40,062 bases of DNA from a virus (IMGVR_UViG_3300032216_000143:1-40062), one strand, 5' to 3'. Shown: positions 7,482-24,157, counted from the first letter of the stretch. Made by a program: numbers and translations. Notes: generated by a model from the letters alone, not told the origin.

Positions 7482-7489
7482 TATTTATC
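7482..7489 (-). promoter_or_regulatory. T4-like late promoter (GATAAATA) for the gp13 operon
   Basis: Minus strand reads TAG-ATAAATA; the motif overlaps the stop codon of the upstream gene, about 30 nt before the gp13 ATG. Confidence 0.7.
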
Positions 7490-10400
7490 TACCAACTAAT
7501 TGTACCTGTACCAGCAGTAAACTTATACACCGTGTAACCAGATCGAGTGGTTGTATCGACAGTATATGTTAATCCAGAACTTACCGTGGATAGTGTTCCT
7601 ATAGATGATGGATAAGCGATGATCACTATGCCTGATCCACCAGTTCCACCTGTACCTACACCTCCCTGGAAACCGCCAGCACCACCACCAGTGTTTGTTA
7701 ATCCAGATCCTCCTGGCGATGGACCAACTGCTGCTGCACCACCGCCTGTTGAAAGTGTTCCTGCTCCAAGAGTTGTTTGTCCCCATCCACCGCCGCCGCC
7801 AGCATAGTATGTTGACACGCCAGAAATGCTTGATTGGATACCAATACCACCAGCGCCACCAGTTTGAGAACCAGCAGCAGCACCAACTGCTCCAGCACCG
7901 CCGCCACCGCCAGCAGCGCCGTTGCCGTCTTGTGCGAAGTTATTACCTCCAGCGTTTCCTTGTCCAGAAGTACCAGCACCTCCTGCTCTACTTTGTCCAC
8001 TTCCTCCATGTCCAGCGCCGCCACCAGAACCGCCAGAAGCACCGGCAGTTTGTCCAGCAGTAGACGTATAATATCCGCCTAACCCACCACCAATAGATGT
8101 TATAATACTAAAAACAGAATTTGAACCGTTGCTGCCGCCTGTCGGTGCAATAGATGTGCCATTACTACCACTACCTCCTGGTCCACCAGCACCAACTGTT
8201 ACGATGTATTGAGTGCCTTGATTGATTATGAATGTTGAAGATGTTTGATATCCACCGCCACCACCACCGCCACTGAACGCACCGCCACCACCAGCAACAA
8301 CAAGATATTCAACAGTTCGAATAGGTCCTAGTAAAGCACGGCCAGAAGATCCAAAAGGTAAAGTTGGTGCAGAAAAGTTTGAAGTGTATCTGCCGATTTT
8401 AGATAATCTAAAATCTTGAATGAAACCGTTAAATACATAACCAGCAGATAATGGAACATTAGAATCTGAACCAATTGCTGGACGATTTGCTCCAGAAGAT
8501 AGATTATTTGAATCTGCGTATGTTGATCCAGTTTGAGTTCCATTTATGAATAATCTACTGCTTCCTGACGATCTACACAATGCAACATGATACCATACGC
8601 CTAAACTTAAATTTGAACCGGCTGTTATAACTGTTGTAGCAGCAGTTTGATATGTCAATGTGCCTACGTTACTCATTCCAAGAACTAAGTATCCTGAAGT
8701 CGATGCTGTGCCTGCAGGTCGAGTGTCGTATAAGGTGCCTAACGATGCAGAATATGCGTTCACAAAAACCCACATTTCAATTGTGAAATCTCCAGTGCCA
8801 AACGTAAACGGAGGATTAGCGGCAGGACCGGGAACGTAAAGATAATCTGTACTACCATTAAATCTCATGCTTGTGATTGATGGAAACTTAGATGGAGTAT
8901 TACCAACTTGTGAACTACCAATAGTGACTACATCATTTTGAGTTGATGTATCATAGATAGCAGTATTATTAAAATTAGTTAATAGAACAGTTTGTGATTT
9001 ACCAAAACTTGTATTCACGTTAGCAGTGTTTGCATAACTCGATGCACTAGTTTGTCCATCGAACGTTAATGGTGCCAACGTTGGTGGAGTAAATGTACCT
9101 GTGTAAACTGCTGTTCCTATAACGAATCTAAAATTGCTGATATAACCGTTGAAATAAGGTCCAGGAGAAGCAGTATCCCATCGACGACCTATGTAAAAAC
9201 CCGCTTGACTAACGACTTGCCATGCTGCAACTGATGCTGTTGCAATCGAGACTCCGTTTGCATATATTGTTGCAGTGGATCCAGTGTAAACACATGCAAT
9301 GTGATACCAAGTATTGAGTGATAAACTTGTTGAAGATTGGACGGTTGTTCCCCACGCTGACCCAGTAAAGAATCCAAACCAAGGAGTAGCACTAACTGTG
9401 CCTCCATTTCCAGATCCCATTCCCATCACGAATGGTATTGGTCCACTACCTGCATATGCACTTGATGCAATCGTCACGGAACTGAAAGTTGAGAAATATA
9501 CCCACGCTTCCATCGTGAACGGAGTTGTTGATGTGGGCAACGCAAAAGTTTGACTTGTTGATACTGAATCCGAACTACCATTAAAGTACCCGCTTCCACC
9601 ATACAGTGATGGACTATACGCCTTAGAAGGAATCGGTTGAAAGTTTTGAACTTTAGGTGTTCCAGTTAACGTAACAGATGCATTGTTCACACTATTATCT
9701 ACAAATCTATTACTCTGAGAAGTGAGTAATGAAGTACCAGATATTGCTGTTAGAACATCTGGTGGCGTAAATGTACTTGTATAAACTGCTGCATTATTAA
9801 CAATTCTAAGATTTGAAATGTATCCTGTATATTGATTGTATGTGCCACCATCTGCCACATGTCTACCAAGTTCAGTTCCTCTGTAACTTGTTCCAGAGTT
9901 TAAATTAAAACTAGCCGAGTATGTTACAGAACCGCCACCGTCTACACCATTAATATAAATTCTACACACATTTGATACATCTCTAACAAATGCTATATGA
10001 TTCCAAGTCCCAGTAGTTATCGTTTTAGTTGTTGTGACAACGTTTGGAAAAACGTTGAATGTTCCAGTTGATGCATTGAAATAAACTCTTCCATCTGTTC
10101 CTATATTTAAAAACCATCCACAGTTTTGTCCAATATTCCAGTTAGCATTATCAATAATAATAGGACTAGTAGAAAACGAAGAACAATTAATCCACATTTC
10201 AACAGTACAAGGACCAGTTGTTAGATAACTGTTTATTCCAAAGTTTACATAAGAACTGCCGTCTAAGTAGTTACTCCAACTTCCATTTGGTAGATACGGA
10301 GTGAAAGATCCTTGTGTTGGAGTTCCATTTCGAGTTAGTGTTAATGCATATGGACTACTATCGATAAAGACGTTATTATTAGCACCATCAGTAATAGATG

Positions 10401-11961
10401 TTGTGTTAGTGTCTGAGAAATTTAAAAGTAAAGTTGTATTAGCAACAGCAGTTAATTGTGACGTTGGCGCAGTAAATCCAGTGACGTTATACACTGCTGT
10501 ACCATTGACTACTCTGAAATCAGAAAAGTAACCTAATGCACCATATCCAGCAAGACCATTATCTTTAGAGTTTCCTATATAAATTGTACTAGAACCGCCA
10601 GTGATGGTTCCTGCAAGCGTGAATGTTGTAGCATCTACTACACCATTGATAAATGTTCTGAGTGTTGATCCATTACGTTGAAGAACAACATGAGTCCAAA
10701 CATAAGGTAAAACTCGTGATGTGAAGTTATAACTTGTTCCTGTGAAAAAACCTGTAATCCATCCAGCGGAAGTGTATGTGCCCATACCCCATACCCAAGG
10801 TGCGGCAGTTGCTCCACCTGTGCGTGTTTCTATGAATGCAAAAGAAGTTGCAGTTGCACTTGTGTCTGTTGGATACACCCACGTTTCGATTGTAAAATCA
10901 CCAGCAAGTGTTGTTATTGCAGCAGTATTAGGGATACTATAAAAATCAGTTTTTATTCCATTGTAACCAGCACCAATACTAGGAGTGATCCCTGAGAATG
11001 TAGTTGGATACCAATCAGAAAATGTTCGTGGTGTGCCAGCCACAGTGACTGCAAAATTATTACCGCTATTATCAATAAATCTATTAGATTGACAAGTGAG
11101 AAGGTTAACTGTACCAGTTATAGAGGTTGCTGCATTTGATCCTGTCCAGCCAACCGTATTAAGCAAAAGTGGCGCAGTTGGTGGTGTAAAATTGCCACTT
11201 GTTAGTGCCTGACCTTTAATCCACCTAATATTTGATAGATAACAAGTTGAACCATTGTTTCCTAAACCATTATTATCATATAAACCATTTACAATAACAC
11301 CACATCCTGATGCTATAGTTGCAGTAACATTTGTTGCAGTACCAGCAGATATTCCATTAATATATAAAGTAATATTATTACTAGAATCTTTAACACATGC
11401 AAAATGATACCAAGCATTTGCAGGATAATTAGTAGCAGTTCTAATGACTACTGGATTCGCATTCGAACCATTTCCTTGAGCAAACTGAAAAGAATTTGTA
11501 GACCATTCACAAGCAATAGCATTTCCATAAATACCTCCGCTTCCAAATCCAAAAAAGTTAAAACTTGATATTGGATAAACCCACATTTCAATTGTCCAAG
11601 TACCAGTATTACCTGGGTCAAATTGACCGCCACCTGGATTAGATTTATAAAGATAATTTCCAGACCCACCAAAATAATTACTCCAATATCCTACAGTCTG
11701 ATACGGACTAGTCCATCCAGCACTCTGATTACCGTTTTTAGTAACTACAAGATTATTGACACTTGAATCTGTTACTGTTGTTTTTGGTGACGCTTGTGGT
11801 CTAGTTTTAAGAAGTAGTGGTGTGTATGCAAAATTTGAATCTGGCCCAGAAGGCCAGTATACTGATGCACTCTTCTCTTGTTGTTCGTAAGATGAATACA
11901 TTCCACCAACAACAGATGTAGAATTCTTTTTACCAAAAATACCACCGTTTCCTCTATTCAT
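7489..11961 (-). CDS. Putative adhesin: NGG...WP N-terminal tag, five LamG-like domains, C-terminal glycine-rich domain
   Basis: 1490 aa; five FT(I/V/M)ExW...W.H.A..R...(L/I)(F/Y)ING...G(Y/F).S..R-type units; C-terminal VEYLVVAGGGG...GGSGIVIIAYP...YKFTAGTGTISW glycine-rich domain. Confidence 0.85.
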   Translation of the reverse strand: MNRGNGGIFGKKNSTSVVGGMYSSYEQQEKSASVYWPSGPDSNFAYTPLLLKTRPQASPKTTVTDSSVNNLVVTKNGNQSAGWTSPYQTVGYWSNYFGGSGNYLYKSNPGGGQFDPGNTGTWTIEMWVYPISSFNFFGFGSGGIYGNAIACEWSTNSFQFAQGNGSNANPVVIRTATNYPANAWYHFACVKDSSNNITLYINGISAGTATNVTATIASGCGVIVNGLYDNNGLGNNGSTCYLSNIRWIKGQALTSGNFTPPTAPLLLNTVGWTGSNAATSITGTVNLLTCQSNRFIDNSGNNFAVTVAGTPRTFSDWYPTTFSGITPSIGAGYNGIKTDFYSIPNTAAITTLAGDFTIETWVYPTDTSATATSFAFIETRTGGATAAPWVWGMGTYTSAGWITGFFTGTSYNFTSRVLPYVWTHVVLQRNGSTLRTFINGVVDATTFTLAGTITGGSSTIYIGNSKDNGLAGYGALGYFSDFRVVNGTAVYNVTGFTAPTSQLTAVANTTLLLNFSDTNTTSITDGANNNVFIDSSPYALTLTRNGTPTQGSFTPYLPNGSWSNYLDGSSYVNFGINSYLTTGPCTVEMWINCSSFSTSPIIIDNANWNIGQNCGWFLNIGTDGRVYFNASTGTFNVFPNVVTTTKTITTGTWNHIAFVRDVSNVCRIYINGVDGGGSVTYSASFNLNSGTSYRGTELGRHVADGGTYNQYTGYISNLRIVNNAAVYTSTFTPPDVLTAISGTSLLTSQSNRFVDNSVNNASVTLTGTPKVQNFQPIPSKAYSPSLYGGSGYFNGSSDSVSTSQTFALPTSTTPFTMEAWVYFSTFSSVTIASSAYAGSGPIPFVMGMGSGNGGTVSATPWFGFFTGSAWGTTVQSSTSLSLNTWYHIACVYTGSTATIYANGVSIATASVAAWQVVSQAGFYIGRRWDTASPGPYFNGYISNFRFVIGTAVYTGTFTPPTLAPLTFDGQTSASSYANTANVNTSFGKSQTVLLTNFNNTAIYDTSTQNDVVTIGSSQVGNTPSKFPSITSMRFNGSTDYLYVPGPAANPPFTFGTGDFTIEMWVFVNAYSASLGTLYDTRPAGTASTSGYLVLGMSNVGTLTYQTAATTVITAGSNLSLGVWYHVALCRSSGSSRLFINGTQTGSTYADSNNLSSGANRPAIGSDSNVPLSAGYVFNGFIQDFRLSKIGRYTSNFSAPTLPFGSSGRALLGPIRTVEYLVVAGGGGAFSGGGGGGGYQTSSTFIINQGTQYIVTVGAGGPGGSGSNGTSIAPTGGSNGSNSVFSIITSIGGGLGGYYTSTAGQTAGASGGSGGGAGHGGSGQSRAGGAGTSGQGNAGGNNFAQDGNGAAGGGGGAGAVGAAAGSQTGGAGGIGIQSSISGVSTYYAGGGGGWGQTTLGAGTLSTGGGAAAVGPSPGGSGLTNTGGGAGGFQGGVGTGGTGGSGIVIIAYPSSIGTLSTVSSGLTYTVDTTTRSGYTVYKFTAGTGTISW
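11671..11716. repeat. 46-nt near-identical direct repeat, copy 1 (partner 15214-15259)
   Basis: aaaataattactccaatatcct(ac/ga)agtctgatacggactagtccat; 44/46 identical; encodes WTSPYQT(V/S)GYWSNYF. Confidence 0.85.
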
Positions 11962-11970: not shown

Positions 11971-14900
11971 CTACAAAGTTAAAAATGGTAAAACCGGTGG
12001 AGTGAAGTTTGCAGTATATCGAGCAATCGCGTTAGTGACACGCAAATCTTGTATGTATCCATTTAAATAATAATTTGCACCTTGACTTCCAACGTTGGTA
12101 CTGGTAGTAGATAAATCGTATGCTTGTGAAGTAGTTTGTGTTGTTCCAACTTGAGTGCCGTTAACAAATATTCGCATACTTGTTCCACTTCTACACCATG
12201 CGAGATGATACCAAACTTTTGGGATTATACCACTTGCTATATTATAATCCCAAGCAACAGCTGTTCGACCATAACCTATGTTTGTGCTGCTGGTAAATCC
12301 AAAAAACGCACCTCCACTTCCACTGGCGCTTATCACAAAATAATCTGATGAAGTTGCATTTAGATATACCCATGCTTCAACAGTAAAAGATCCTGTACCA
12401 AGATTTAATGCTGAGTTAGTTGGAATAGTCAAATAATCACTACTGCCATTGAATCTCATGCTAGTTGAACCAGCCCACTTAACTACTGTATTACTGGCTT
12501 GTGCGTTGCTGACGGTGATTAAATTATTTTGAATCGTTGCGTCATAGATGCCAGAATTTGAAAAGTTTTGAAGTAACGAAGTGCTAGAAGAACCAAAAAC
12601 TGTGTTAACGTTAGCAGTGTTTGGATAAGCAACTGCACTTGTTGATCCAGAATTTGTTAATAAACCTAAAGATGGTGGTGTAAAATTACCAGTATATACT
12701 GATACACCTTTGATATATCTCAAGTTGCTAATATATCCAGTCCATATTCCAAATGATGCAGTGTGTGAATACCGACCTATAGTTGGAACATAACTTAGAT
12801 TCGATAAATCTGTAGTATTACTGGTTGGAGTGCCAGAAACGCCATTAACAAAAACTCTAACAGTTCCACTAGATCTAGTAACTGCAACATGATGCCATGC
12901 GTTTAATGGTAAAGAGGTTGTAGGTCCGTTAATTGGAGTGCCTCCGCCACTTGCCGTCATATAAAAATAAGCGGTAGTAGCATTAAAACCTAAAAGAAAA
13001 TAATTTGTACCGCTAACAGATTGTGTCCAAATATAATTGTCTGTGCCTGATGTAGCATAAACCCAACACTCTAAAGTGAAATCACCGGTGCCAGGAGCAA
13101 AGGCTGAACTAACTGGAAATTGTAAATAATCTGATTGGGATAATGGAAAATATCCACTTCCCCCATACGCCGCAGTGTTGTACGAAGCCTTGGGCGAGAA
13201 CGGTTGGAATGCTTGGACTTTGGGAGTGCCGCCACTAACAGTCATTGACAAATTGTTGATGCTATTGTCCTTGAATCTGTTACTTTGGTTGGTGAGCAAC
13301 TGAACAGTTCCTGTCAATGAAGAAGCAGCGTTTGCTCCAGTCCATCCCACTGTTGTTGATGTTACTGGAGATGTTGGCGGTGTAAAGTTTCCCGTTGCTA
13401 ATGCTTGTCCTTTTACAAATCTAATATTTGATATATAACCAACATTTTTATATGATGCGCCTTCATATGATCCAATATAAAATCCTGATGAATTATTAGG
13501 ATTTCTACTCGACGCAGTTGACCCCTGTGACACTCCATTAATCCATAAATACATCGTGCCCGAACTTCTAGTCATAGCGACATGATACCAAGTGTTTATT
13601 GTTAATGTTCCATTGCCAATCCCATCTGGAGATGTGTTTCCGTTTGTAAAAAGTTGTGAGTTAAGTACACCATTATTGGTATACATACCAAATCCTCCGC
13701 CCGAGACTGAAGGATGATTTGATAATATTCCTAATATACCGCTAACCGATGTTAGATAAACCCAACATTCCAATGTTAAATCACCAGTTCCTACATCAAA
13801 ACCGGATACGTATGGAGTGGTCAGATAACTAGATCCATCAAAATAATTACTCCAATAACCATCGGGCCAATACGGAGTTATAGAACCCTGAGTGGGAGTT
13901 CCTAATCTTGTAACAGGAAAAGCATATGGACCACTATCAATAAACGCATTATTGTTAGATGTATTAGCAAAAGAAGTGTAATTACTATCTGCTAAATTTA
14001 ATAGTAGACTTGTATTAGACGATGCGATTGATGTAACTACGTTTGATGTGCTAGGATAAGTTCCACCAGTTGTTGTTAGAAAATCAGTTGGTGGTGTAAA
14101 GTTACCAGTGTAGACTGCTGTGCCTTTAACAATACGAAAGTTGGAAATGTAACCACCAAATGGGAATTCTCCCGTTGATCCTACTGCACCTATGGTAATT
14201 GGTTGAGCAGATTGATAATCCAATCCTCCAGTTAGTGCTATTTTAGTTCCACCAATACCGTTTATATAACATGTGTAACCAGTTGCATCTTTAACTAATG
14301 CAATATGTGTCCAAGTGTTACCTAAAATTGCATTAGTGTTTAATTGTCTGTTTGCATATGCGTTACCGACAATGACACCATTGAGATATGGTATTCCAGA
14401 AGCATCAGTCGATAAACCCCATCCAGTTGTAGATGCATTGGCACGAGCACCTATTATACCTACGGAACTTCCAAATTTAGCATTGTATACCCAAGCTTCT
14501 ATAGTAAAATTCACAGATGATGAACTGAGATCGAATGTGGATGTGTTTGGTGTTTGAATCCAATCTGTCGTACCATTGAAGTATCCACCACCAACACTGG
14601 CAGCAGGCGCAGAAAATGTACTAGGATACCAATAAGGCGTTGTCTGTGGTGTACCAGTTAATGTGACTGCAAAATTGTTTGTGCTATTATCAATGAATCT
14701 ATTATTTTGACAGATAAGTAAAGATGTATTGGTAATCGCAGTTAGTGGAGAAGTAGATGGAGTAAATGCTGATGTATAAATTGCTGTGCCTTTAATGACA
14801 CGAAGATTTGATACATAACCAGTAAATTTACCTCCTCCAGCAGCACCAGCAGAGCCTATACCAAATTGAGCCGTTGTTACGTTTGGATTAGATTGAGACC

Positions 14901-15513
14901 CAGCAGTTACATCAACTCCGTTCATCCACAATTTCCAAGTACCGCTAGCCCTTGTAAAAGCAATGTGTGTCCACACATTTGCAGTCATTACTGTATTTGT
15001 GTAAACTGGCCAGTTTGCACTAGATGAACAATAAGGAACTCCAGTTGCAAGAAAACCAAATGCTATATCCGTAGACGATGCGCCTGGTCCACCGCATACA
15101 AAAGAAAGTCCCGGCACACTTGGGCAATAAACCCAATACTCAACTGTAAAATCAGCAGTTCCAAAGGTAAAAGCAGAACTAGAAGCATTTGAAAGATAAT
15201 CCGTAGTTCCATTAAAATAATTACTCCAATATCCTGAAGTCTGATACGGACTAGTCCATGCAGTACTAGGTGTACCAACTCTACTAACAGTTAAATTATT
15301 GACACTAGAATCAATTGCAGTTGTGCTGCGTATCGATTGATTAGATGTTTTCAATAATAGAGAAGTGTTTGCAAAGTTTGAATCTGCTCTATCAGGCCAA
15401 AGACCTGCTAATTTATTCTCTTGTTGTTCATATAGTGGATAAACACCAGAGAAAGGATATACCGATGCATCTTCTTTAAGGATGCCAATATATCCTCCGT
15501 TGCTTCGATTCAT
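11971..15513 (-). CDS. Putative adhesin: NGG...WP N-terminal tag and five LamG-like domains
   Basis: 1180 aa; collinear paralog of 7489..11961 without the glycine-rich tail; ATG overlaps the upstream stop (TAATG). Confidence 0.85.
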   Translation of the reverse strand: MNRSNGGYIGILKEDASVYPFSGVYPLYEQQENKLAGLWPDRADSNFANTSLLLKTSNQSIRSTTAIDSSVNNLTVSRVGTPSTAWTSPYQTSGYWSNYFNGTTDYLSNASSSAFTFGTADFTVEYWVYCPSVPGLSFVCGGPGASSTDIAFGFLATGVPYCSSSANWPVYTNTVMTANVWTHIAFTRASGTWKLWMNGVDVTAGSQSNPNVTTAQFGIGSAGAAGGGKFTGYVSNLRVIKGTAIYTSAFTPSTSPLTAITNTSLLICQNNRFIDNSTNNFAVTLTGTPQTTPYWYPSTFSAPAASVGGGYFNGTTDWIQTPNTSTFDLSSSSVNFTIEAWVYNAKFGSSVGIIGARANASTTGWGLSTDASGIPYLNGVIVGNAYANRQLNTNAILGNTWTHIALVKDATGYTCYINGIGGTKIALTGGLDYQSAQPITIGAVGSTGEFPFGGYISNFRIVKGTAVYTGNFTPPTDFLTTTGGTYPSTSNVVTSIASSNTSLLLNLADSNYTSFANTSNNNAFIDSGPYAFPVTRLGTPTQGSITPYWPDGYWSNYFDGSSYLTTPYVSGFDVGTGDLTLECWVYLTSVSGILGILSNHPSVSGGGFGMYTNNGVLNSQLFTNGNTSPDGIGNGTLTINTWYHVAMTRSSGTMYLWINGVSQGSTASSRNPNNSSGFYIGSYEGASYKNVGYISNIRFVKGQALATGNFTPPTSPVTSTTVGWTGANAASSLTGTVQLLTNQSNRFKDNSINNLSMTVSGGTPKVQAFQPFSPKASYNTAAYGGSGYFPLSQSDYLQFPVSSAFAPGTGDFTLECWVYATSGTDNYIWTQSVSGTNYFLLGFNATTAYFYMTASGGGTPINGPTTSLPLNAWHHVAVTRSSGTVRVFVNGVSGTPTSNTTDLSNLSYVPTIGRYSHTASFGIWTGYISNLRYIKGVSVYTGNFTPPSLGLLTNSGSTSAVAYPNTANVNTVFGSSSTSLLQNFSNSGIYDATIQNNLITVSNAQASNTVVKWAGSTSMRFNGSSDYLTIPTNSALNLGTGSFTVEAWVYLNATSSDYFVISASGSGGAFFGFTSSTNIGYGRTAVAWDYNIASGIIPKVWYHLAWCRSGTSMRIFVNGTQVGTTQTTSQAYDLSTTSTNVGSQGANYYLNGYIQDLRVTNAIARYTANFTPPVLPFLTL
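15214..15259. repeat. 46-nt near-identical direct repeat, copy 2 (partner 11671-11716)
   Basis: Direct comparison with 11671-11716; a shorter partial third copy lies near 13841-13857. Confidence 0.85.
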
Positions 15514-15866
15514 TAACTGATGTCCTCATATGAACATACTGCTTCTAGTTTAGACGCTGTGCTACCAGTCAATCGAAGAACGTCACCCTCCTCTAGATAA
15601 AGAGGTTTGTTGATAACATCTAGTGTAGATGCTGCTGGTACTACTATCGCAAAACCAATTCTATATGCAACACTTGATCTAAAAATGTCCATGTTGAGAG
15701 TATAGTTAGTTGTACCATCAACATTAGAAATATATAGTGCATTAACTTTAAGAACTTTACTACTAGATGCTGCATTAGTAAGTATCGCAGTTGCTGTTGC
15801 GGGAACAACCAGTACAGCAGTCTTGCCGTTACATGTTGTTGCTCCGAATATATTTGGTGCTGCCAA
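15513..15866 (-). CDS. Conserved 117-aa MAAPNI protein, copy A (putative adaptor)
   Basis: TTG start; MAAPNI...KVLKVNALYISNVDG...VPAASTLDVI.K..YLEEGD.LRL...KLEA.CSYEDIS; paralog of 23597..23950 with the same length. Confidence 0.85.
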   Translation of the reverse strand: MAAPNIFGATTCNGKTAVLVVPATATAILTNAASSSKVLKVNALYISNVDGTTNYTLNMDIFRSSVAYRIGFAIVVPAASTLDVINKPLYLEEGDVLRLTGSTASKLEAVCSYEDIS

Positions 15867-15867: not shown

Positions 15868-16101
15868 TTAACCTCCTGCGAATACTAAAGATATGCCAGT
15901 TATTTTGGCTTGCGATAATCCACCACCAGTTCCACTTGTAGAAGATCCTAGTCCAGAAATGTTAACCCACTGGACACCAAGAGATGATGCTATTCTTTTA
16001 TATAGAATACCAGTTGAAGGGTTGTACCATTCGTCGCCCACCGTAACACCGATGGGCTCCGTCGTAGAAACAAAATGTTGGAGACTGACTCTTGATGACA
16101 T
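15868..16101 (-). CDS. Small protein with hydrophobic C-terminal ...ITGISLVFAGG tail (77 aa)
   Basis: Start reassigned to ATG at 16101 (MSSRVSLQHF), 1 nt after the upstream stop; contains a P...VGDEWYNP..G.LY fibre-type motif; C-terminus resembles 23957..24157. Confidence 0.75.
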   Translation of the reverse strand: MSSRVSLQHFVSTTEPIGVTVGDEWYNPSTGILYKRIASSLGVQWVNISGLGSSTSGTGGGLSQAKITGISLVFAGG

Positions 16102-16102
16102 A

Positions 16103-19100
16103 TTATGCTTGTGCTTCCGTCCAGTTGATTCGAGCAAGTATCGAGTTAGTCGTAACTGATGTCACGTTAGTAGCACAAATCGTAACAATGTCAGGACCAT
16201 CTGGATAGATGTTTGCAAATGTCGTTGGGCACAGATTAGTCGTGCCGCCACCAAGAATAGAAGTACCTAGATCTCTAACTGTCGAAAGATCTTCTTCCTG
16301 AATACCAGCAGTGGTGTAGAAACCGTAAATGTTTTCACCACCAGTGATTGTTGTTCCAGAAGGATGTACAGCAATTTGAGCAAGACTTGATCCACCAACA
16401 GAAGCAAACTGACCAGCCGAAACACGACCATTCAGACGAAGAGTCATCAAGAATGTGACGCCAGTACCAGTTGTAAATGTCGAGAGTGTACGCATAACTA
16501 ACTGCATACGATTGATGATTTCTCTTGAGCCGAGAATACCTGTTAGTCCGTTATCAACAGATGGAGAAATACGAAGACTTAACAGAGGTACAACAACGTC
16601 TTGACCAATGTTAGAGATCGTTTGTGTTCTGTTCATACCGCCGACGAACACTAGAGATTTATCATCGTCGAATCTACCATCCATGATAACGCTAGAACCC
16701 CAGTGACTGATCGAACTAGCCTGACTCGGACCATACAACTCAACTTTAGTTGGTGCTGTAGCCGAGAATGTGAACGATGTTGCAGAAGCATTACCACCAG
16801 CAGCAGTACCAGCGCCAGTGATAGTTAAGTTCTGAATATTTCTCGTGAGCCCGACTAATGTGTTTCCAGTATTAGAAGAAGTCTTACTCGTGTAAGAAAT
16901 GTATTCAATAACACCACTCGTGTCACCGGGCTGCGTGACTACTACTGTTCCTGCATTAGGTAACGCAGACACATCATTTACTGACATGAATGTAGTCTGT
17001 GCAGAAGGCAGTGTAGATGTTAAGTAAGTGTATGGCGCTAAAGTGTTTGTCTCGTATCTGCCGACCATGTTACCAGAACGCATGTATGCTTCTGTATTCA
17101 CGTTGTTGTTAGGAATTCTATGACAGTAGACAACTTCACCACGATTGTTCTTGAAGCCAAATCTAATAGCACCAGCGCCGTACCATGTGAAGTCCATGTA
17201 GAACATTTGCATCTTCGTTAGATCTATGTTCATTAGACTAGCGCCAGTGCCGTCCATCTTGTCGATATTCCAAGAACTCTGGATATATCGCACATCAATC
17301 GTCTTACTAACAATTGTGTTTGTGACGTTAGTGCCACCTCTGTATTCAGGATAAATCGTCATTGCTGTGTCAGAAGTAATCGTTTGAACGATATATGACA
17401 TACCACGAATGACGATGTAGTCGCCTGGTTTTAGCTGTGAAGAGAACTTGGTGCTAGTTCCAGTTATAGCATTTGATCCTGCGTTTACAGAGATGTTTCC
17501 AGTGATTTGTGTCGTGCTGCTACGCTTAACGCAGTATACGTTTTGACCATCAAATTCAAAGAAGAATCCGTTCTGTTGATCAAACATACCAACACGATTT
17601 GCACTGCCGTACCAAGACGCTGGACTCACTGAGATTGGAAAGCCAGTCGCTGTCGAGTTAGTTGGAGTTCCCAACATCGTGTACGAAATAGTGAGCGGAG
17701 TCGTAGCAGTAACTAAGAAAGTGCCATTGTAATAGCCATCAAGCAGTGTAGTTGATGTTCCAGCAGTTACGCCAGAGACAACAATGAAAGAGCCAGGAAG
17801 AAGTCCATGCGTGTACTTTGTCGTGATAGTAGCAGTCGTACCAGAACTTGTGATACCTTCTAAGAACACAGATGGCTTTAGAATACTACCAGTTGAGAAT
17901 TGAATACCTTTACCAGACTGATATCTAAACTGTCTACGTGTTTGACGAATGACTTGATAGCCATGAAATGGACTCACATTCGAGAATTGAACACCACCGT
18001 CGAATGGACGATGCTGCACATATCCTAATGGACGTGGATAGATACATGCATTTGATGGTGTCGTGTGCGTCGTTGCTGCAACAGCAGTCAAGAAAGTAAA
18101 TGTGTTTGTTGTAAGCGTTCTTTCTACAACATAGTTGCCGTTAAGTGCAGTGTTAGTAGATGTGCCAACGATAAAGATGCCGTCACCGACACGAAGTCCA
18201 TGACCATTTGTTGTTGTTACTGTAGCACGAGTACCGTCTGTGACGATTGCAGTAGTGCCAGCAGGAATAGCAGCACCAGTATAGAATTGTCCGTAGTAAA
18301 CATATGTCTTTGATGCATCATATAGTGCTGCTGCTGGTGCAGTAGTTGTTACATACTGAAACACACCAGTCGATGCTGTCGAACTTGTACATAACCACCA
18401 ACCGTCAGCGTTTGCTACGTCAAGAGAACCTTGAACGAAGATTGGCTGTCCAACTGAAGGTAATGCTAACGTAAACACCAAAGCACCAGTTGTCATTGCT
18501 GCTGATGTCTGAACAGTAATCTGTGTAGCAGAGTCAATAGAAAGAACTGTTGCAACAGCACCAGCACCGAATGTACCAGTACCACTTTGTTTGATTAACT
18601 GTGCACCGGGATAAAGACCAGCAGTAGATCCGATACCAGTAATTGTCGATACGATAGCAGCAGTCTGAATACCAGAAGATGCTGTGTATGCAGTTGCAGT
18701 GACAGAAACTGTTGTCGAAGAAGCAGTCATTGCAGAAATGACGCTCGTGATAGTCGGATCATAGAATGCAGAAGCACGGTTGTTCAATAGATTTAAACTT
18801 TCCCACTTCGTTGGCTGCTGTCCATATTCAAAGTCAGTGTCGATTAGAGACTGCGGAGTACTAACTCTAAGTTTATCAACAGGATCTCGCATCACTTCAG
18901 AAGGGATAATCTCGTGATAAGTCTCTTCGACTAGAATACTAATCTTATTAGTGGAAGCCATTGACGAAGTGTTATATGCTAACACAATCGTAGTAGTCTC
19001 AGTACCAGATACTGGATCAACAGCATTCGTGTAACTAGTTGTTCCTAGTGCAGGATCAGAAAAGTTATACAGAACAGTACCAGTTGATGTGTTCGTGATG

Positions 19101-19198
19101 AGAAGTAATTGCTCTCGACGGATGTTCTTACCAGTAACAACAACAGTTCTTGTTGATGGTGTAAAAGTGTATCCTTCTAATATTACATGCTTTGCCAT
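16103..19198 (-). CDS. Large virion structural / fibre-associated protein
   Basis: 1031 aa; N-terminal YTFTPS...EQLLLITN...LYNFSDP, DPVDKLRVSTPQSLIDTDFEYG.QPTKWE, repeated T.TT...HGL..G..I.(I/V).G units, RQTRRQFRYQSGKG and WYGAG motifs that I recall from aquatic-phage structural proteins. Confidence 0.7.
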   Translation of the reverse strand: MAKHVILEGYTFTPSTRTVVVTGKNIRREQLLLITNTSTGTVLYNFSDPALGTTSYTNAVDPVSGTETTTIVLAYNTSSMASTNKISILVEETYHEIIPSEVMRDPVDKLRVSTPQSLIDTDFEYGQQPTKWESLNLLNNRASAFYDPTITSVISAMTASSTTVSVTATAYTASSGIQTAAIVSTITGIGSTAGLYPGAQLIKQSGTGTFGAGAVATVLSIDSATQITVQTSAAMTTGALVFTLALPSVGQPIFVQGSLDVANADGWWLCTSSTASTGVFQYVTTTAPAAALYDASKTYVYYGQFYTGAAIPAGTTAIVTDGTRATVTTTNGHGLRVGDGIFIVGTSTNTALNGNYVVERTLTTNTFTFLTAVAATTHTTPSNACIYPRPLGYVQHRPFDGGVQFSNVSPFHGYQVIRQTRRQFRYQSGKGIQFSTGSILKPSVFLEGITSSGTTATITTKYTHGLLPGSFIVVSGVTAGTSTTLLDGYYNGTFLVTATTPLTISYTMLGTPTNSTATGFPISVSPASWYGSANRVGMFDQQNGFFFEFDGQNVYCVKRSSTTQITGNISVNAGSNAITGTSTKFSSQLKPGDYIVIRGMSYIVQTITSDTAMTIYPEYRGGTNVTNTIVSKTIDVRYIQSSWNIDKMDGTGASLMNIDLTKMQMFYMDFTWYGAGAIRFGFKNNRGEVVYCHRIPNNNVNTEAYMRSGNMVGRYETNTLAPYTYLTSTLPSAQTTFMSVNDVSALPNAGTVVVTQPGDTSGVIEYISYTSKTSSNTGNTLVGLTRNIQNLTITGAGTAAGGNASATSFTFSATAPTKVELYGPSQASSISHWGSSVIMDGRFDDDKSLVFVGGMNRTQTISNIGQDVVVPLLSLRISPSVDNGLTGILGSREIINRMQLVMRTLSTFTTGTGVTFLMTLRLNGRVSAGQFASVGGSSLAQIAVHPSGTTITGGENIYGFYTTAGIQEEDLSTVRDLGTSILGGGTTNLCPTTFANIYPDGPDIVTICATNVTSVTTNSILARINWTEAQA

Positions 19199-19202: not shown

Positions 19203-19754
19203 TTAATCTCCAAGAGCAATCGTTGTTGCTGAAAAAGGGTATCTAGTTGTCTGAGTCGTTGAAAGAGGCGTTCTAAGTAAAATTGTAGATGAATCTCCAA
19301 CATACGGTGCATTATAAATTGTTATATAGTTAGAGGAATTATTAGACGAATCTTGAAATATTCTAACTCTAAAACCTTTAAACGAATCATATGGTGTTAT
19401 CCATGGATAAGTATATCTAGCCACATAAGGACTTAATCTTCTTCCGTCAATCGCTACTTCAAAATCTTTACTATCTGTTGCTATATTTATAGAAGTCTGA
19501 TCTGTTTTTAATTGGAAGTGTGAAGTCGAGCCATCAAATTGATTTGAGATATCATTGAGAACTGTAGTACCGAATGGTAAAGCGGCATTCGTATAGTAGT
19601 AATTAGTAGCATATACTGCTGTAGCATAAAGATTACCAGCAACGCCAACACCGCCAGCAACAGTAAGAGTACCAGTCGTGTTACTCGTACTGATCGTAGT
19701 GTTCGATAGATTTAGAACATCTATACCATTACTATTAAATTTTCTTAATGCCAT
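19203..19754 (-). CDS. Putative virion structural protein (183 aa)
   Basis: Contains the fibre motif STSNTTGTLTVAGGVGVAGNLY and LNDISNQFDG...F.L; first gene after a late promoter. Confidence 0.7.
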   Translation of the reverse strand: MALRKFNSNGIDVLNLSNTTISTSNTTGTLTVAGGVGVAGNLYATAVYATNYYYTNAALPFGTTVLNDISNQFDGSTSHFQLKTDQTSINIATDSKDFEVAIDGRRLSPYVARYTYPWITPYDSFKGFRVRIFQDSSNNSSNYITIYNAPYVGDSSTILLRTPLSTTQTTRYPFSATTIALGD

Positions 19755-20145: not shown

Positions 20146-20167
20146 ACGAACCTCCTACACTTTAAAA

Positions 20168-21346
20168 TTATGGGTAAGGATATCTAATGACTACGATGCC
20201 TGAACCACCATTAGTGCGAGTCGATGGCCCTCCTGTTCCTTGTGTGAGTCCGCCGCCACCGCCCCCTTTTGAACCGGCGCCAGATGAGTCTGATCCGCCT
20301 CCACCATATGGACCAAAATCTCCTGGATTAGATTCTGGAGTATATCCATTAGTTCCAGAACCGGATGTACCTCCACCACCACCTCCACCATATTGAGTAC
20401 CATCTATTGATGATATAACTCCAATTCCACCTCCACCATTATATCTACCTGGTGGAGGATACGGTGGTCCTGGTGGATATCCTTTAGGTGCGTAACCTGG
20501 AACTCCTATTCCAGGGGGATACCAATATCTGGAATCATTTCCGTTCGCTCCAGCACCACCGCCTCCTCCACCCCCCATGAACAGAGCAGAGGGTTCAAGT
20601 CCTGGTCTGTTTACAACGCCACCACCAAATCCGCTTCCACTGGATGCTCCGTTTCCAGTGGTTGCTCCGTTCGGAGCAGGAGCACCAGCACCTCCAGAAG
20701 CACTGCCTCCAGCCCAACTTGATGGACTTCCGTCTTTAACAGGAAAAGATGAACCTGATCCTCCAGGACCAACAGTTATTGGATAAGCAGTGTTTGTCGT
20801 TAATGATATACCGGTAACATTTGTTACCTGACCACCTCCACCTCCACCTCCACCGGAAGAAGGTGGTCCATTACTACCACTACCACCGCCTCCAACTATT
20901 AAGGAAGCAAATCCTAAATTACCATCATTACTCGTAACTGTAAATGTTCCCGGCGAAGTGAATATGTGAAATCTGTAACCAGTATATGATCCAGTGCCGT
21001 CGTAAATAGTTTGACCGCCCGACGCTGTGATGGGTGGCACAACAGGAGTTATCTGATTAGAAGATGTGCTTGATAGACTATAACCATTAGCGTTTCTTGC
21101 TTGTACTGTGAAAGTGTAAGCAGTACCGTTACTGAGTCCAGTAATAGTAATAGGTGATCCAGATCCAGTTGCAGTAACACCACCCGGCGATGATGTCACT
21201 CGATAATCTAGTATTTGACTACCACCATCAGAAGCAGGAGCAGTAAACGTAACTGTTGCTTGTCCGTTACCAGCAGTTGCAGTTCCAATAGTCGGTGCAG
21301 AAGGCACTCCTGTACCACCGACGAACATTCCTAAAAAACCAGACAT
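20168..21346 (-). CDS. Putative adhesin passenger: hydrophobic N-peptide, FN3 and glycine-rich domain
   Basis: 392 aa; MSGFLGMFVGG, then PSAPTIGTATAG...GLSNGTAYTFTVQARN (FN3), then ASGG...YRFHIFTSPG...GGSGIVVIRYP. Confidence 0.8.
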   Translation of the reverse strand: MSGFLGMFVGGTGVPSAPTIGTATAGNGQATVTFTAPASDGGSQILDYRVTSSPGGVTATGSGSPITITGLSNGTAYTFTVQARNANGYSLSSTSSNQITPVVPPITASGGQTIYDGTGSYTGYRFHIFTSPGTFTVTSNDGNLGFASLIVGGGGSGSNGPPSSGGGGGGGGQVTNVTGISLTTNTAYPITVGPGGSGSSFPVKDGSPSSWAGGSASGGAGAPAPNGATTGNGASSGSGFGGGVVNRPGLEPSALFMGGGGGGGAGANGNDSRYWYPPGIGVPGYAPKGYPPGPPYPPPGRYNGGGGIGVISSIDGTQYGGGGGGGTSGSGTNGYTPESNPGDFGPYGGGGSDSSGAGSKGGGGGGLTQGTGGPSTRTNGGSGIVVIRYPYP

Positions 21347-21347
21347 A

Positions 21348-22232
21348 TTACGTTAATCCTAATCCAAAAATATACCAAGTATCTGTTGCTACTTTCAAAA
21401 GTGTAGCGATACCGTTTGATGCAAGAGTTCTATTACCAGTTGATGCAGAGTTTGCCCACTTCAGAGTGACACCAGAACCTTGTGTAATAGTGAGTGATGT
21501 TGCGTTACTAACGACAGTGATTACAGCACCAATCTCAAATGGTACTGAAGAATTTGGTGGCACTGTAACGCCAGAACTAACATAAACATGTTTACCTGAA
21601 TCACCAAGTGCTAAGTTACCTGATGTAGTGCCACTCTGAGGCATGTTTCTGAAACCAAATTGATACTGACTGCCAGAGAAATCTAACACTGTACTTACGT
21701 TTGCGAGTCCAGTGATTGTTTTATTCGTTAACGTCTGAATTCCAGTAAGCGTGACTGCTACGTTCGGATCAACAGATATTGTTGTGCCAGTTGTTCCGTT
21801 ATAAGAAGAACCGACAGTAGAATTAATGCCACTACCAAATGTCAATGTAGCAAGCGTGAAACTGTTGCCAAGTGAAACAGTAGAACCATTAATTCTAACA
21901 TTACTATTCGCTAACATCGAGTTAGTAATAGTACCAACGTCATTAGATGTTATGATTGTACCAGATGTTGTCGGAAACGTGATTACATTACCACTTGATG
22001 TAGAAATACTTGATACGTTTACTGTAGTTGCAGAAATAGATCCGTTACTGACGATTGAGTTACCAGTAATACTTCCAAGCACAGTTACATTAGAGAATAC
22101 TGTCTGTGTGATCGGTGCACCATTAGCATAGAAGTATCCATTCGCATACATGCGATCAGTTATAGCAGCATTAGATGCAACTATAGTGCTTGCTATATTG
22201 ATGTTGTCTGTAAGAAATGAATAATTTGCCAT
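21348..22232 (-). CDS. Short fibre protein with C-terminal DSGKH...TWYIxGxG domain
   Basis: 294 aa; paralog of 30918..31763 (ITN.MLA...INGx.VSLGNSFT, Q.LTNKT, VTVPPNS..PF..G.VIT, GNRTLA, KVATDTWYI). Confidence 0.75.
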   Translation of the reverse strand: MANYSFLTDNINIASTIVASNAAITDRMYANGYFYANGAPITQTVFSNVTVLGSITGNSIVSNGSISATTVNVSSISTSSGNVITFPTTSGTIITSNDVGTITNSMLANSNVRINGSTVSLGNSFTLATLTFGSGINSTVGSSYNGTTGTTISVDPNVAVTLTGIQTLTNKTITGLANVSTVLDFSGSQYQFGFRNMPQSGTTSGNLALGDSGKHVYVSSGVTVPPNSSVPFEIGAVITVVSNATSLTITQGSGVTLKWANSASTGNRTLASNGIATLLKVATDTWYIFGLGLT

Positions 22233-22244
22233 TTTAGTTTCTCG

Positions 22245-23597
22245 TTATGTGAACGTGACAGTTCCTGATCCTGCCGTAACATCATATACTTTTGTTGATC
22301 CTGGTGAGTATTGTGTAACAGTTAATCCTGGTGTAAACGTCGCAGTATTCGTCAATGGTATCTGAAGAATGAGTCTTCCTGATCCACCATTTCCACCACT
22401 ACCGGTTGGACCACCACCTCCACCTCCACCGCCGCCAGAATTAGTTCTGCCAGGATTGCCATTACCCGCAACTGGTGGGGCTGCTGACGGAGATGCGTTT
22501 CCACCACCATAACCACCGCCGTATGGATTACTTGTTGATCCTGGAAACCAAGGTCCTGTGCCACCACCGTAACCTCCACCAGCGACAAGTTGAGTTGGCG
22601 CAGGCGCAAATGGAATTGTTATTCCTGTTCCACCAATTGCTCTAGAACTATATGGATTAGGAGTTCCGCCCGCCGATCCAGCACCGCCACCACCACCAGC
22701 AGTCGTATATATACCAGGAAATCCAGTTGGAAATTCAAAGGAAGGTGGTGCCGATGCTCCAGGATTTCCATATTGTATAAAATTTGGAAAGGAGCTAGAA
22801 GAAGGTTGTGAAGCAGGTCCAGAAGAACCTCCTCCTGAAGGTGACACTTCCGCAGCTCCTCCACCAGAACCACCTGGTCCACCTGGTGCAGCAAAGGAAG
22901 AAAACATTATATATCCACCGTATCCACCACCAAATGCTGAAAATGAGGAAGTTCCTGTGAATGATGTACCTGTTCCGGAACCACTTGGACCAACTGCTCC
23001 AGATACTCCAGATCCACCACCGCCAATTGAAATTGGTATTGCAGTGTTATAACTTGTAGGATAAGCTGGCACGTATACTACTCCGCCAGCACCGCCACCG
23101 CCACCCATAAAAGTACCAGGACTACTGTTGTATCCACCACCAGCACCACCACCACCTGCAATCAAATAAATATCAACATTTGTTGCTTGAACTTGTGGAA
23201 CTATACTATTGCTTGCTGCACTAAAAGCACTAGATCCATCAGAGTTTGTAGCATACACAGTAAACGTGTATGTTGTTCCTGTTGTTAATCCAGAAATTGA
23301 TATTGTACCAGAACCTGATTGACTTAATGATGCAGTGATTCCATCAGGAGATGAAACAGCAGTGTAAGATATGATAACGCTTGCACCAGTATAAACTGGT
23401 GCAGTAAATGCAACAGTTGCGGTTGTTGTACCAGTTGATGTCGCTACACCAATAATAGGAGCGTCTGGTTTATTAGATGGCCAAACAGAAGCGCCTTTAG
23501 CAATTTGGGCTTCTTGTACTGACCAAACTCCAGAACCACCAGTCGAAGTCGTGGTTACTTTTCTTGGTCCAATAATGCCGCCATTGCCTTTACGCAT
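22245..23597 (-). CDS. Putative adhesin passenger: NGG...WP tag, FN3 and glycine-rich domain
   Basis: 450 aa; MRKGNGGIIG...SGVWSVQEAQ...VWP, an FN3 unit, then VDIYLIAGGGG...GGSGRLIL; TAATG overlap with the upstream gene. Confidence 0.8.
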   Translation of the reverse strand: MRKGNGGIIGPRKVTTTSTGGSGVWSVQEAQIAKGASVWPSNKPDAPIIGVATSTGTTTATVAFTAPVYTGASVIISYTAVSSPDGITASLSQSGSGTISISGLTTGTTYTFTVYATNSDGSSAFSAASNSIVPQVQATNVDIYLIAGGGGAGGGYNSSPGTFMGGGGGAGGVVYVPAYPTSYNTAIPISIGGGGSGVSGAVGPSGSGTGTSFTGTSSFSAFGGGYGGYIMFSSFAAPGGPGGSGGGAAEVSPSGGGSSGPASQPSSSSFPNFIQYGNPGASAPPSFEFPTGFPGIYTTAGGGGGAGSAGGTPNPYSSRAIGGTGITIPFAPAPTQLVAGGGYGGGTGPWFPGSTSNPYGGGYGGGNASPSAAPPVAGNGNPGRTNSGGGGGGGGGPTGSGGNGGSGRLILQIPLTNTATFTPGLTVTQYSPGSTKVYDVTAGSGTVTFT

Positions 23598-23950
23598 TAA
23601 CTAATATCCTCATACGAACATAGTGCTTCCAACTTACTAACCGTGTTTGCAGTAAGTCTAAGTGCATCACCTTCTTCAAGATAAAATGCTTTAGATATAA
23701 CATCTAAGGTAGAAGCAGCAGGAACTATAATCTGAGAACCTAATCGATATGCAACCGAACTTCTAAAAAGATCCATAGTTAATGTGTAGTTGTTTGCATT
23801 ATCAACATTAGATACATATAGTGCATTAATTTTAAGAACTTTATTACTACCACCAGCATTAGATACAATCGCAGTAGGCGAAGTTGTCACTAACTGTACT
23901 GATGTTTTACCTGCAATCGCTGTTACGCCAACAATATTTGGTGCTGCCAT
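23597..23950 (-). CDS. Conserved 117-aa MAAPNI protein, copy B (putative adaptor)
   Basis: Paralog of 15513..15866; GGAGG SD at 23961-23965. Confidence 0.85.
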   Translation of the reverse strand: MAAPNIVGVTAIAGKTSVQLVTTSPTAIVSNAGGSNKVLKINALYVSNVDNANNYTLTMDLFRSSVAYRLGSQIIVPAASTLDVISKAFYLEEGDALRLTANTVSKLEALCSYEDIS

Positions 23951-23956
23951 TTTTTA

Positions 23957-24157
23957 TTAACCTCCGAATACTATTGACATTGCAATAGCCTTGCCCGTAG
24001 TGAACGGTGTTGTTATGATAGATGTTCCATTTGCATAACAGAACGTGTTAGCATACACTACATTAGATGTTACTGATGTGTTTGCAGTAACAGTCGCTGA
24101 AGTGACTGCGTTTGATGTCAGTGAACCAGTAACATTTAATGAATTTCTTAATGGCAT
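23957..24157 (-). CDS. Small protein with C-terminal ...TTGKAIAMSIVFGG tail (66 aa)
   Basis: Fills the gap exactly; contains a YANTFCYANG motif shared with the fibres; hydrophobic C-terminus like that of 15868..16101. Confidence 0.75.
   Translation of the reverse strand: MPLRNSLNVTGSLTSNAVTSATVTANTSVTSNVVYANTFCYANGTSIITTPFTTGKAIAMSIVFGG

What the first reader, a model, noticed from the sequence alone, without database searches (positions are those of the whole stretch)
7489..24157. Type I three-part cassette: VFxGG-tailed anchor, MAAPNI adaptor, and NGG...WP-tagged interchangeable passengers
Seen: the same gene triad occurs twice. Copy A is 15868..16101, 15513..15866, then 11971..15513 plus 7489..11961. 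Copy B is 23957..24157, 23597..23950, then 22245..23597. The first genes share only a hydrophobic C-tail (AKITGISLVFAGG vs GKAIAMSIVFGG). The 117-aa proteins are well conserved end to end. The three passengers share a ~40-aa N-terminal tag (NGGxxG...(S/G)G(V/M)(W/Y)xxxExQ...WP) fused to different cargo: 5xLamG, 5xLamG plus Gly-rich, or FN3 plus Gly-rich. Inference: the MAAPNI protein is a small adaptor that bridges an anchor peptide to any tagged adhesin, giving a plug-and-socket display system for receptor-binding modules. I know of no functional description of this triad.
Basis: partly seen in the sequence, partly recalled or inferred. Interest (0 to 1): 0.85.

Follow-up and report, generated by a model that had tools for sequence, protein, structure and literature searches.

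The report
Snap-on joint for phage fibre tips
This uncultured T4-like phage twice carries a three-gene unit (a short fibre-like protein ending in an oily tail, a 117-residue protein predicted to be a jelly-roll, then one or two predicted host-binding proteins that share a 40-residue start tag) that recurs in many aquatic phages with different cargo behind the tag, and it likely works as a snap-on joint for swapping host-binding tips, although binding has not been shown.

Summary
Both triads are real, and the adaptors are 69% identical.

The linkage holds in IMG/VR contigs:
- The tail KAIAMAIVFG was C-terminal in 117 of 117 matches, and the adaptor was the next gene in 107 of 114 testable.
- NGGIIGP-starting genes had the adaptor directly upstream in 55 of 64.
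- A close relative of copy A keeps the anchor (99%), the adaptor (86%) and tag residues 1-40, but carries unrelated cargo.
- Natural adaptor-cargo fusions lack the tag.

The adaptor is predicted to be one jelly-roll (pLDDT 94) with no close solved relative. Distant paralogues are labelled virion proteins in S-TIM5 and S-SCSM1.

Corrections:
- The anchor is usually the C-terminal tip of a fibre, not a free peptide.
- The last Gly of 'VFxGG' comes from the adaptor's ribosome-binding site.
- The tag has two halves, which cargo can split (51 of 66).
- Paralogous adaptor classes pair with their own tails and tags and can chain.

A virion joint is the best reading (about 0.7). This scan found the same system before on other DNA. 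I found no description of it in print.

The parts
15868..16101 (-). Anchor A, 77 aa mini fibre-like protein ending in variant tail SQAKITGISLVFAGG
   Evidence: 99% identical in relative L347; no Pfam or PHROG hit
15871..15915 (-). Hydrophobic C-terminal plug of anchor A; last two codons GGAGGT double as Shine-Dalgarno of adaptor A
15513..15866 (-). Adaptor A (MAAPNI class), 117 aa, TTG start, variant N-arm PNIFGA; stop overlaps passenger start (TAATG)
   Evidence: phrog_1276 E 7e-4
11971..15513 (-). Passenger A1, 1180 aa: tag (aa 1-40, 15394-15513) plus 5 LamG/concanavalin domains
   Evidence: relative L347 shares only aa 1-40, then FN3 plus Gly-rich
7489..11961 (-). Passenger A2, 1490 aa: tag (aa 1-37, 11851-11961) plus 5 LamG plus Gly_rich_2
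   Evidence: 39% identical to A1 over about 1200 aa; relative G003 lacks the Gly-rich end
23957..24157 (-). Anchor B, 66 aa mini fibre-like protein ending in canonical tail TGKAIAMSIVFGG
   Evidence: same slot holds a 198-aa protein with a similar start and a variant tail in G001
23960..23998 (-). Hydrophobic C-terminal plug of anchor B; GGAGGT Shine-Dalgarno in the last two codons
23597..23950 (-). Adaptor B (MAAPNI class), 117 aa, predicted single jelly-roll beta-sandwich with an unstructured conserved N-arm (aa 1-11)
22245..23597 (-). Passenger B, 450 aa: tag (aa 1-40, 23478-23597) plus FN3 plus Gly_rich_2
24170..24553 (-). phrog_7759 protein (MAHFAELD-like family), which often accompanies Gly-rich passengers; possible assembly helper, role untested
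   Evidence: similar genes follow passengers in HTVC033P and DSL-LC04 and in IMG/VR loci
375..7453 (-). Context: T4-like head-tail adaptor Ad2 (gp13), gp14, gp15, small and large terminase directly downstream of the cassette

Best explanation
The 117-residue protein, predicted to be a single jelly-roll, likely serves as a permanent two-sided joint on the phage particle: it would grip the hydrophobic C-terminal tail of a fibre on one side and would hold the shared N-terminal tag of an interchangeable, likely host-binding protein on the other. Shown: gene order, tight spacing of the three genes, a tail that is always C-terminal, the tag's first half nearly always N-terminal, cargo replaced behind an unchanged tag, and tag-less fusions. 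Inferred: (1) Upstream partners are trimeric fibres, so three tail helices likely meet an adaptor oligomer of three or a multiple of three. (2) The adaptor's N-arm (residues 6-9) likely contacts the tail. (3) The two tag halves (GGxxG strand; G-[VI]-W-x-L helix plus W-P) likely fold together only on binding or oligomerising, with cargo hung after WP or inserted in the loop between the halves. (4) Paralogous adaptor classes, each with its own tail and tag, would let several joints work in one virion and chain fibre segments.
For: Linkage from the tail: 117 of 117 distinct matches were C-terminal, and the adaptor was the next gene in 107 of 114 testable. Linkage from the tag: NGGIIGP was N-terminal in 108 of 113; the adaptor was directly upstream in 55 of 64 and somewhere upstream in 61 of 64. 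For ASGIWSLxEQ the adaptor was upstream in 12 of 12. Linkage from the adaptor: a hydrophobic upstream end in 31 of 51 against 40 of 608 other genes; a tag half downstream in 30 of 53, against 5 and 4 of 654 other genes for the two halves. Cargo swap: in L347 the anchor is 99% and the adaptor 86% identical; the passenger matches only aa 1-40 (68%) and then has FN3 plus Gly-rich instead of 5 LamG. Eleven adaptor-cargo fusions were examined. None shows the tag after the adaptor domain, and cargo includes LamG, Gly-rich, CBM and an S74-type fibre. Split tag: of 66 complete NGG[IV][IL]GP proteins, 13 were contiguous, 51 split and 2 had no second half; control 8 of 524. The tag alone models at pLDDT 66, with coil over aa 1-26. 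Arm-tail covariation: canonical tail with canonical arm 63, with variant arm 0; other tail 13 and 13; the strongest columns are 9 and 7. Adaptor classes pair with their own tails and tags and chain. Cultured phages place paralogues between a tail fibre and a tagged gene: HTVC033P, HMO-2011, HTVC010P, S-TIM5, S-SCSM1. The S-TIM5 and S-SCSM1 copies are labelled virion proteins.
Against: No binding data, predicted or measured. The virion labels belong to the distant MANTF-type paralogues, not to the MAAPNI subtype, and I could not confirm the S-SCSM1 label against its mass-spectrometry list. Exceptions exist. 20 of 51 upstream genes fell below the hydropathy cut-off, many with an extended variant tail. 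23 of 53 downstream genes had neither tag half by regex. One cyanophage-like group has a different small protein next. S-CBWM1 gp15 has neither tail nor tag beside it. 7 of 114 tails lack an adjacent adaptor. The arm-tail covariation used patterns defined after viewing the data and dropped 6 of 95 rows. It gives only 6-8 independent pairs, all in one direction, with median p 0.06-0.125. Oligomer state is unknown: fold neighbours include trimers, pentamers and larger rings.
Confidence: 0.7

Rival explanations
1. The adaptor is an assembly chaperone or transient cap for the upstream fibre tip. The tagged passenger docks directly on the fibre, as gp38 does on gp37, or elsewhere on the virion.
For: Fibre-chaperone gene pairs are common (own knowledge; search listing). 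The tail link is tighter (107 of 114) than the tag link (30 of 53 from the adaptor side). S16 gp38 docks directly on gp37 through tryptophans (PMC6851490 passages), and the tag carries conserved tryptophans.
Against: Adaptors are fused to lectin, Gly-rich and fibre cargo, or carry cargo inserted in loops, which fits a displayed virion part. Paralogues are labelled virion proteins. No sequence match between the tag profile and any solved structure, gp38 included.
Confidence: 0.14
2. The adaptor is a permanent cap on the fibre tip, but the tag does not bind it. The tag only oligomerises the passenger or binds another virion part, and the genes travel together as a recombination cassette.
For: The second tag half also occurs mid-protein and at C-termini, as a self-association motif might. 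Several passengers follow one adaptor, and some use a different start (MAQFP...).
Against: The tag class follows the adaptor class, and fused adaptors carry no tag. The swap breakpoint falls exactly at the tag end. Fused adaptors show relaxed conservation at T10, G14 and T16; this is weak (11 rows, 42 columns tested).
Confidence: 0.11
3. The shared ends are only signals for translational coupling or homologous recombination, and the adaptor is an unrelated decoration or cement protein.
For: The terminal Gly codons are the adaptor's Shine-Dalgarno in 16 of 18 FGx* forms, and the adaptor's YEDIS end encodes GAGGA before the passenger. The fold resembles cement and turret jelly-rolls (Z 8.4-8.5, rmsd 3.2-3.5, 97-105 aligned).
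Against: The rest of the tail uses all synonymous codons allowed by the scan pattern, so it is kept as protein. In FG* forms the Shine-Dalgarno lies in the spacer (85 of 91). The tag's two halves stay paired across 250-340 inserted residues.
Confidence: 0.05

Closest known systems
Branched receptor-binding systems of Klebsiella podophages KP32/K11: branching domain of RBP1 plus conserved N-terminal docking peptide of RBP2 (PMC13352976; abstract and discussion section 21 read)
   Same: A short N-terminal peptide on exchangeable host-binding proteins that docks on a socket; cargo can be swapped behind the peptide.
   Different: There the socket is a domain inside RBP1. Here it is a free 117-aa protein that would itself be held by a C-terminal tail, and it comes in paralogous classes. 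The cargo is LamG, FN3 and Gly-rich rather than depolymerase.
T-even/S16 gp38 adhesin capping the gp37 fibre trimer (PDB 6F45; PMC6851490 passages read)
   Same: A separately encoded Gly-rich tip protein at the C-terminal end of a fibre, with tryptophans in its N-terminal attachment part.
   Different: gp38 binds gp37 directly through a three-helix bundle, with no third protein. Neither the tag profile nor the window's Gly-rich domain matched 6F45 by sequence.
Anabaena phage A-1(L) neck fibre gp82-gp81-gp80 bead chain (PMC10966104; abstract and section 8 read)
   Same: A fibre built from separately encoded small modules joined head to tail, with a distinct tip.
   Different: There about 14 trimers of one protein stack on each other; no tail/tag code is described. 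These chains were not among the listed fold matches.
PHROG phrog_1276 and BFVD 'virion structural protein' jelly-rolls (S-TIM5 H6WG40, S-SCSM1 A0A6M2ZHP5, MaMV-DC A0A075BU08)
   Same: Same superfamily: 60 of 144 adaptor sequences hit phrog_1276, and Foldseek TM is 0.81-0.84. S-TIM5 and S-SCSM1 show the same tail-adaptor-next-gene order.
   Different: Function is unassigned there. These are the MANTF-type class, with AIALG-like tails and different tags.
Small single jelly-rolls in the PDB: nucleoplasmin cores, Bacillus Ena1/Ena2, KHP40 cement, HFTV1 and STIV turret proteins
   Same: Same fold: best Z 9.3-9.5, rmsd 2.5-2.9, 93-97 aligned.
   Different: Identity is 4-16% and no match stands above the rest, so the fold gives no function or oligomer state.

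Membership tests
KP32-type branched RBP system | Conserved N-terminal peptide on exchangeable secondary RBPs | tested here: met
   Tag N-terminal in 108 of 113; cargo swap behind aa 1-40. This is an analogy; no sequence homology was tested.
KP32-type branched RBP system | Socket is a branching domain inside the primary RBP | tested here: not met
   The candidate socket is a separate 117-aa gene. The 66/77-aa anchors have no room for such a domain and no Pfam hit.
KP32-type branched RBP system | Peptide-socket binding needed for virion incorporation | not testable with these tools
   Needs binding assays or genetics.
T-even gp37-gp38 adhesin tip | Gly-rich adhesin encoded downstream of the fibre | tested here: met
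   PF21722 in two window passengers; homology to gp38 itself not shown.
T-even gp37-gp38 adhesin tip | Adhesin gene directly follows the fibre and starts with a three-helix Trp attachment domain | tested here: not met
   An adaptor gene intervenes in 107 of 114. The tag models with one helix only, at low confidence.
GP4 gp77 fiber-tail adaptor (Pfam PF23148; accession taken from earlier finding e1-6057722) | Match to the Pfam model or the fold | tested here: inconclusive
   No Pfam hit at E 0.01; not among the listed fold matches, which does not exclude it.
phrog_1276 / MANTF-type virion jelly-roll superfamily | Profile and fold match | tested here: met
phrog_1276 / MANTF-type virion jelly-roll superfamily | Present in the virion | tested here: inconclusive
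   GenBank labels for S-TIM5 and S-SCSM1 paralogues; mass-spectrometry list not seen; none for the MAAPNI subtype.
C1q/TNF-like trimeric fibre head | Trimer around a three-fold axis continuing a stalk | tested here: inconclusive
   TNF-family matches only at Z 6-7. Fusion to an S74-type fibre suggests three-fold compatibility. No oligomer prediction was available.

The most novel reading that the evidence does not exclude
A superfamily of free jelly-roll connectors forms an orthogonal peptide code across aquatic tailed phages. Each adaptor class reads its own C-terminal tail and its own two-part N-terminal docking module, so one phage can build branched, chained, mix-and-match adhesin trees, and phages with different tail types can trade host-binding tips by swapping only what follows a 40-residue tag.
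Probability: 0.45. Interest if true: 0.82.

Novelty: new variant of a known kind. Interest (0 to 1): 0.64.

Why it matters
The family is very large: 4,118 proteins at 90% clustering among 4,132 scored and 933 clusters at 50%. Paralogues occur in abundant marine phages such as HTVC010P, HMO-2011, S-TIM5 and P-SSM2. Almost all are annotated hypothetical or generic structural. If it is a joint, it explains how the hypervariable host-recognition islands of aquatic phages (PMC7029224, passages read) are assembled and exchanged. The tag would mark candidate host-binding proteins in uncultured phages, and the small parts would be a testable, reusable display kit.

Tried and rejected
- PDB sequence searches gave nothing usable for the adaptor (best E 0.006 over 55 aa to an aerolysin-like protein, judged chance), the tag, the Gly-rich domain or the second-system domain.
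- The ESM Atlas gave only unnamed viral clusters.
- GTDB genomes gave 1 locus, in an 8.6-kb MAG contig, so there is no sign of a cellular system.
- Promoter and terminator scans were at chance level. TATAAATA occurred once against 3.06 expected.
- No natural tail-adaptor fusion was seen among 19 longer homologues (6 of them read) or in the loci.
- The lead that this is the A-1(L) fibre type was rejected after reading section 8. The A1002 chain-like fibre is a different design (PMC13730344, abstract and passages).
- No RNA holder was listed.
- The second-system script was faulty and was redone. Its 'C-terminal 30 of 69' counter is also unreliable; I read the rows by eye.
- The strict regex missed visible second halves and was loosened, with the control redone.
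- Literature searches that found no description. One search was swamped by an author name, so it shows only that the 30 listed papers lack the other motifs. PMC7824862 and PMC12143355 passages mention lectin cargo and adaptors but not this unit. Subscription papers and bioRxiv supplements are not covered.

Full report
Setting. The window is a 40-kb virus record. All major genes are on the minus strand. The finding lies in a run of fibre and lectin genes directly upstream of T4-like gp13 (Ad2), gp14, gp15 and the terminases. This is the position of the host-recognition island described for pelagimyophages and cyanomyophages (PMC7029224, passages read).

Observation. All seven ORFs are as described. 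The adaptors are 69% identical. Cargo is 5 LamG, 5 LamG plus Gly-rich, and FN3 plus Gly-rich. A tag profile that includes the window's tags finds only the three passengers. Contigs of the possible source run tile the region without differences, and two other runs bridge adaptor B and its passenger. The genes are tightly spaced: the adaptor stop overlaps the passenger start (TAATG), and the anchors' last two codons are GGAGGT. In 109 tail-adaptor junctions, 16 of 18 forms ending FGx* hold the Shine-Dalgarno in the last codons and none in the spacer. 85 of 91 forms ending FG* hold it in the spacer and none in the codons. So the final Gly of 'VFxGG' comes from the ribosome-binding site, and the conserved peptide is K-A-I-A-M-[AS]-I-V-F-G.

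The adaptor. It has 4,118 homologues among 4,132 candidates scored and 933 clusters at 50% identity. AlphaFold2 on 144 sequences gives a single jelly-roll, mean pLDDT 93.6, with residues 1-11 unstructured though M1, P4 and N5 are nearly invariant. No solved structure is close: best Z 9.3-9.5 to nucleoplasmin cores and Ena1 at 4-13% identity. BFVD gives 114 matches at E 0.001 or better, including proteins named virion structural protein in S-TIM5, S-SCSM1 and MaMV-DC. 60 of 144 members hit phrog_1276, of unknown function.

Linkage, tested from each part. From the tail: a DNA pattern for KAIAMAIVFG fetched 120 of an estimated 1,700 stretches. All 117 distinct matches were followed by a stop within two codons. 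The adaptor was the next gene in 107 of 114 with enough sequence, further on in 2, and not found in 5 with about 300 nt downstream. From the tag: NGGIIGP (119 of about 1,100 stretches) was N-terminal in 108 of 113. The adaptor was directly upstream in 55 of 64 and somewhere upstream in 61 of 64. ASGIWSLxEQ (18 loci) was N-terminal in 13 of 16, with an adaptor upstream in 12 of 12. From the adaptor (the best 80 of 136 loci): 31 of 51 distinct upstream genes ended in a hydrophobic decapeptide, against 40 of 608 other genes. 30 of 53 downstream genes carried a tag half, against 5 and 4 of 654 other genes. Exceptions: an extended variant tail followed by a different small gene in a cyanophage-like group, and an orphan copy in S-CBWM1.

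What the anchor is. Upstream partners range from about 50 to 1,863 residues. In cultured phages they are annotated tail fibres (HTVC033P gp66, HMO-2011 gp43, S-SCSM1 ORF26), a hypothetical protein just behind the annotated tail fibre (HTVC010P), or an 81-aa mini protein (S-TIM5). The window's 66- and 77-aa anchors are the short end of this range. What holds their own N-termini is not known.

Interchangeable cargo. Metagenome locus L347 repeats copy A gene for gene down to gp13. The anchor is 99% and the adaptor 86% identical, but passenger 1 matches only residues 1-40 (68%) and continues with FN3 plus Gly-rich. G003 keeps the LamG passengers but lacks the Gly-rich end of the second. G001 has a longer anchor B and an extra cassette. 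Eleven proteins have the adaptor fused at the N-terminus of cargo with no tag between; they need 6 changes on the tree, at least 2 of them forced by supported branches. Others carry cargo inserted in adaptor loops. One fusion partner has an S74 chaperone domain, which by established knowledge marks trimeric fibres.

The tag has two halves. Of 66 complete proteins starting NGG[IV][IL]GP, 13 have the W-x-L...W half straight after. 51 have it 248-339 residues later, behind an insert that looks glycine-rich in the rows read. 2 lack it. Only 8 of 524 control proteins have it internally (the regex was loosened). Alone, the contiguous tag models poorly (pLDDT 66; coil 1-26, helix 27-35). I infer a docking module that folds on binding or oligomerising and accepts cargo in its loop or after WP. 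A third start type, MAQFP plus the second half, also follows adaptors.

Hints at the interfaces. Among 95 adaptors under 75% core identity, I dropped 6 whose upstream gene had no tail-like end. All 63 with a canonical tail have the arm P-N-[IV]-V-x-V; the 26 with other tails split 13 and 13. The most associated columns are 9 and 7, also in the 32 rows not picked by tail or arm pattern. Window copy A is such a variant pair. On the tree this is only 6-8 independent pairs, never in the opposite direction, median p 0.06-0.125, and the classes were defined after viewing the data. It is suggestive, not proof. Fused, tag-less adaptors keep P-N, N48, Y-L-x-E and S-Y-E but relax T10, G14 and T16, a weak lead for the tag site.

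Classes and chains. Iterated profiles pull in distant paralogues. The MAAPNI/MANPNI clade (SH-aLRT 97) goes with KAIAMAIVFG tails and GGxIG tags. MANTF-like proteins go with AIALG-like tails and mostly M-x-Y-[IL]-G starts. The MARAYK clade (97) mostly goes with FLLGGM-like tails. In L041, L005 and S-SKS1 the gene after one adaptor ends in the tail for the next. Kin share labels, so this shows pairing by class, not co-evolution. The tree is the quick one, since the careful search did not finish.

Mechanism and rivals. The best reading is a permanent two-sided joint on the virion (0.70). Rivals are a fibre chaperone or cap with direct docking of the passenger (0.14), a tip cap with an unrelated tag (0.11), and coupling signals only (0.05). 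Binding, oligomer state, virion presence of this subtype and receptor binding by the cargo are all inferred. S-SCSM1 ORF27 is labelled 'virion protein' in GenBank, and the paper reports 45 proteins by mass spectrometry (PMC9602691, passages and one supplement searched), but I did not see the list.

Comparison and novelty. It would work like the KP32 docking peptide plus branching domain (PMC13352976) and like gp38 on gp37 (PMC6851490). It is a member of neither, because the socket is a separate protein held by a C-terminal tail. Ten literature searches showed no description of the unit. This scan reached a similar reading on at least eight other windows; those are AI notes, not independent support. 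Verdict: real, very widespread, a new variant of modular receptor-binding assembly; interest 0.64.

Noticed in passing
window 21348-22232 then 20168-21346; 30918-31763 then 28789-30918; 3162-4691 then 2461-3162 (all minus): A second, two-part plug and socket without adaptor. A roughly 100-aa C-terminal domain (34-66% identical among three window copies) is followed by a gene starting with a short hydrophobic segment (MSGFLGMF, MGGVLGIML, MSAMMAIA). In 69 distinct related rows (read by eye) the domain ends its protein and most next genes start M-x-I-Q-Q-M-L-L-G-like. No PDB sequence match.
   Followed up: partly
window 24610-26631 and 26662-28779: Two proteins share an N-terminal region (MVxK..., TIG/He_PIG-like, FN3) with different ends (Gly-rich versus LamG): a possible third attachment type. 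Relative G001 has both with other cargo.
   Followed up: no
window 24170-24553: phrog_7759 protein, which repeatedly accompanies Gly-rich passengers in related loci and cultured phages; candidate assembly helper.
   Followed up: partly
window 23957-24157, 19203-19754, 30918-31763: Anchor B shares a short start (M-[PA]-[LF]-[RK]-[NKR]) with two other genes, and a Y-A-N-x-x-x-Y-A-N-G-like repeat with several fibre genes: possible docking motif for the anchors themselves.
   Followed up: no
L029:5101-5778, L046:5596-6273, L047:2531-3208; proteins P0131, P0136, P0138, P0285: Adaptors with whole domains inserted in loops: a roughly 108-aa domain, a propeller-like domain, or LamG. The inserted 108-aa domain resembles, by eye, the start of window gene 31766-34630.
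   Followed up: partly
L061:2353-3086, L067:4825-5956: Three or four tandem 77-96-aa mini fibre genes, each ending in a hydrophobic tail, ahead of a single adaptor in cyanophage-like contigs.
   Followed up: no
L002:10354-12353 compared with window 16103-19198: A distant adaptor precedes a protein that starts close to the motif found at about residue 100 of the window's 1031-aa virion protein (phrog_5838). The window's N-terminal ~95 aa may replace an adaptor link there.
   Followed up: no
L344:8494-8889 (S-CBWM1 gp15): Orphan MAAPNI gene among non-structural genes, annotated 'putative lectin', with no tail or tag neighbour.
   Followed up: partly
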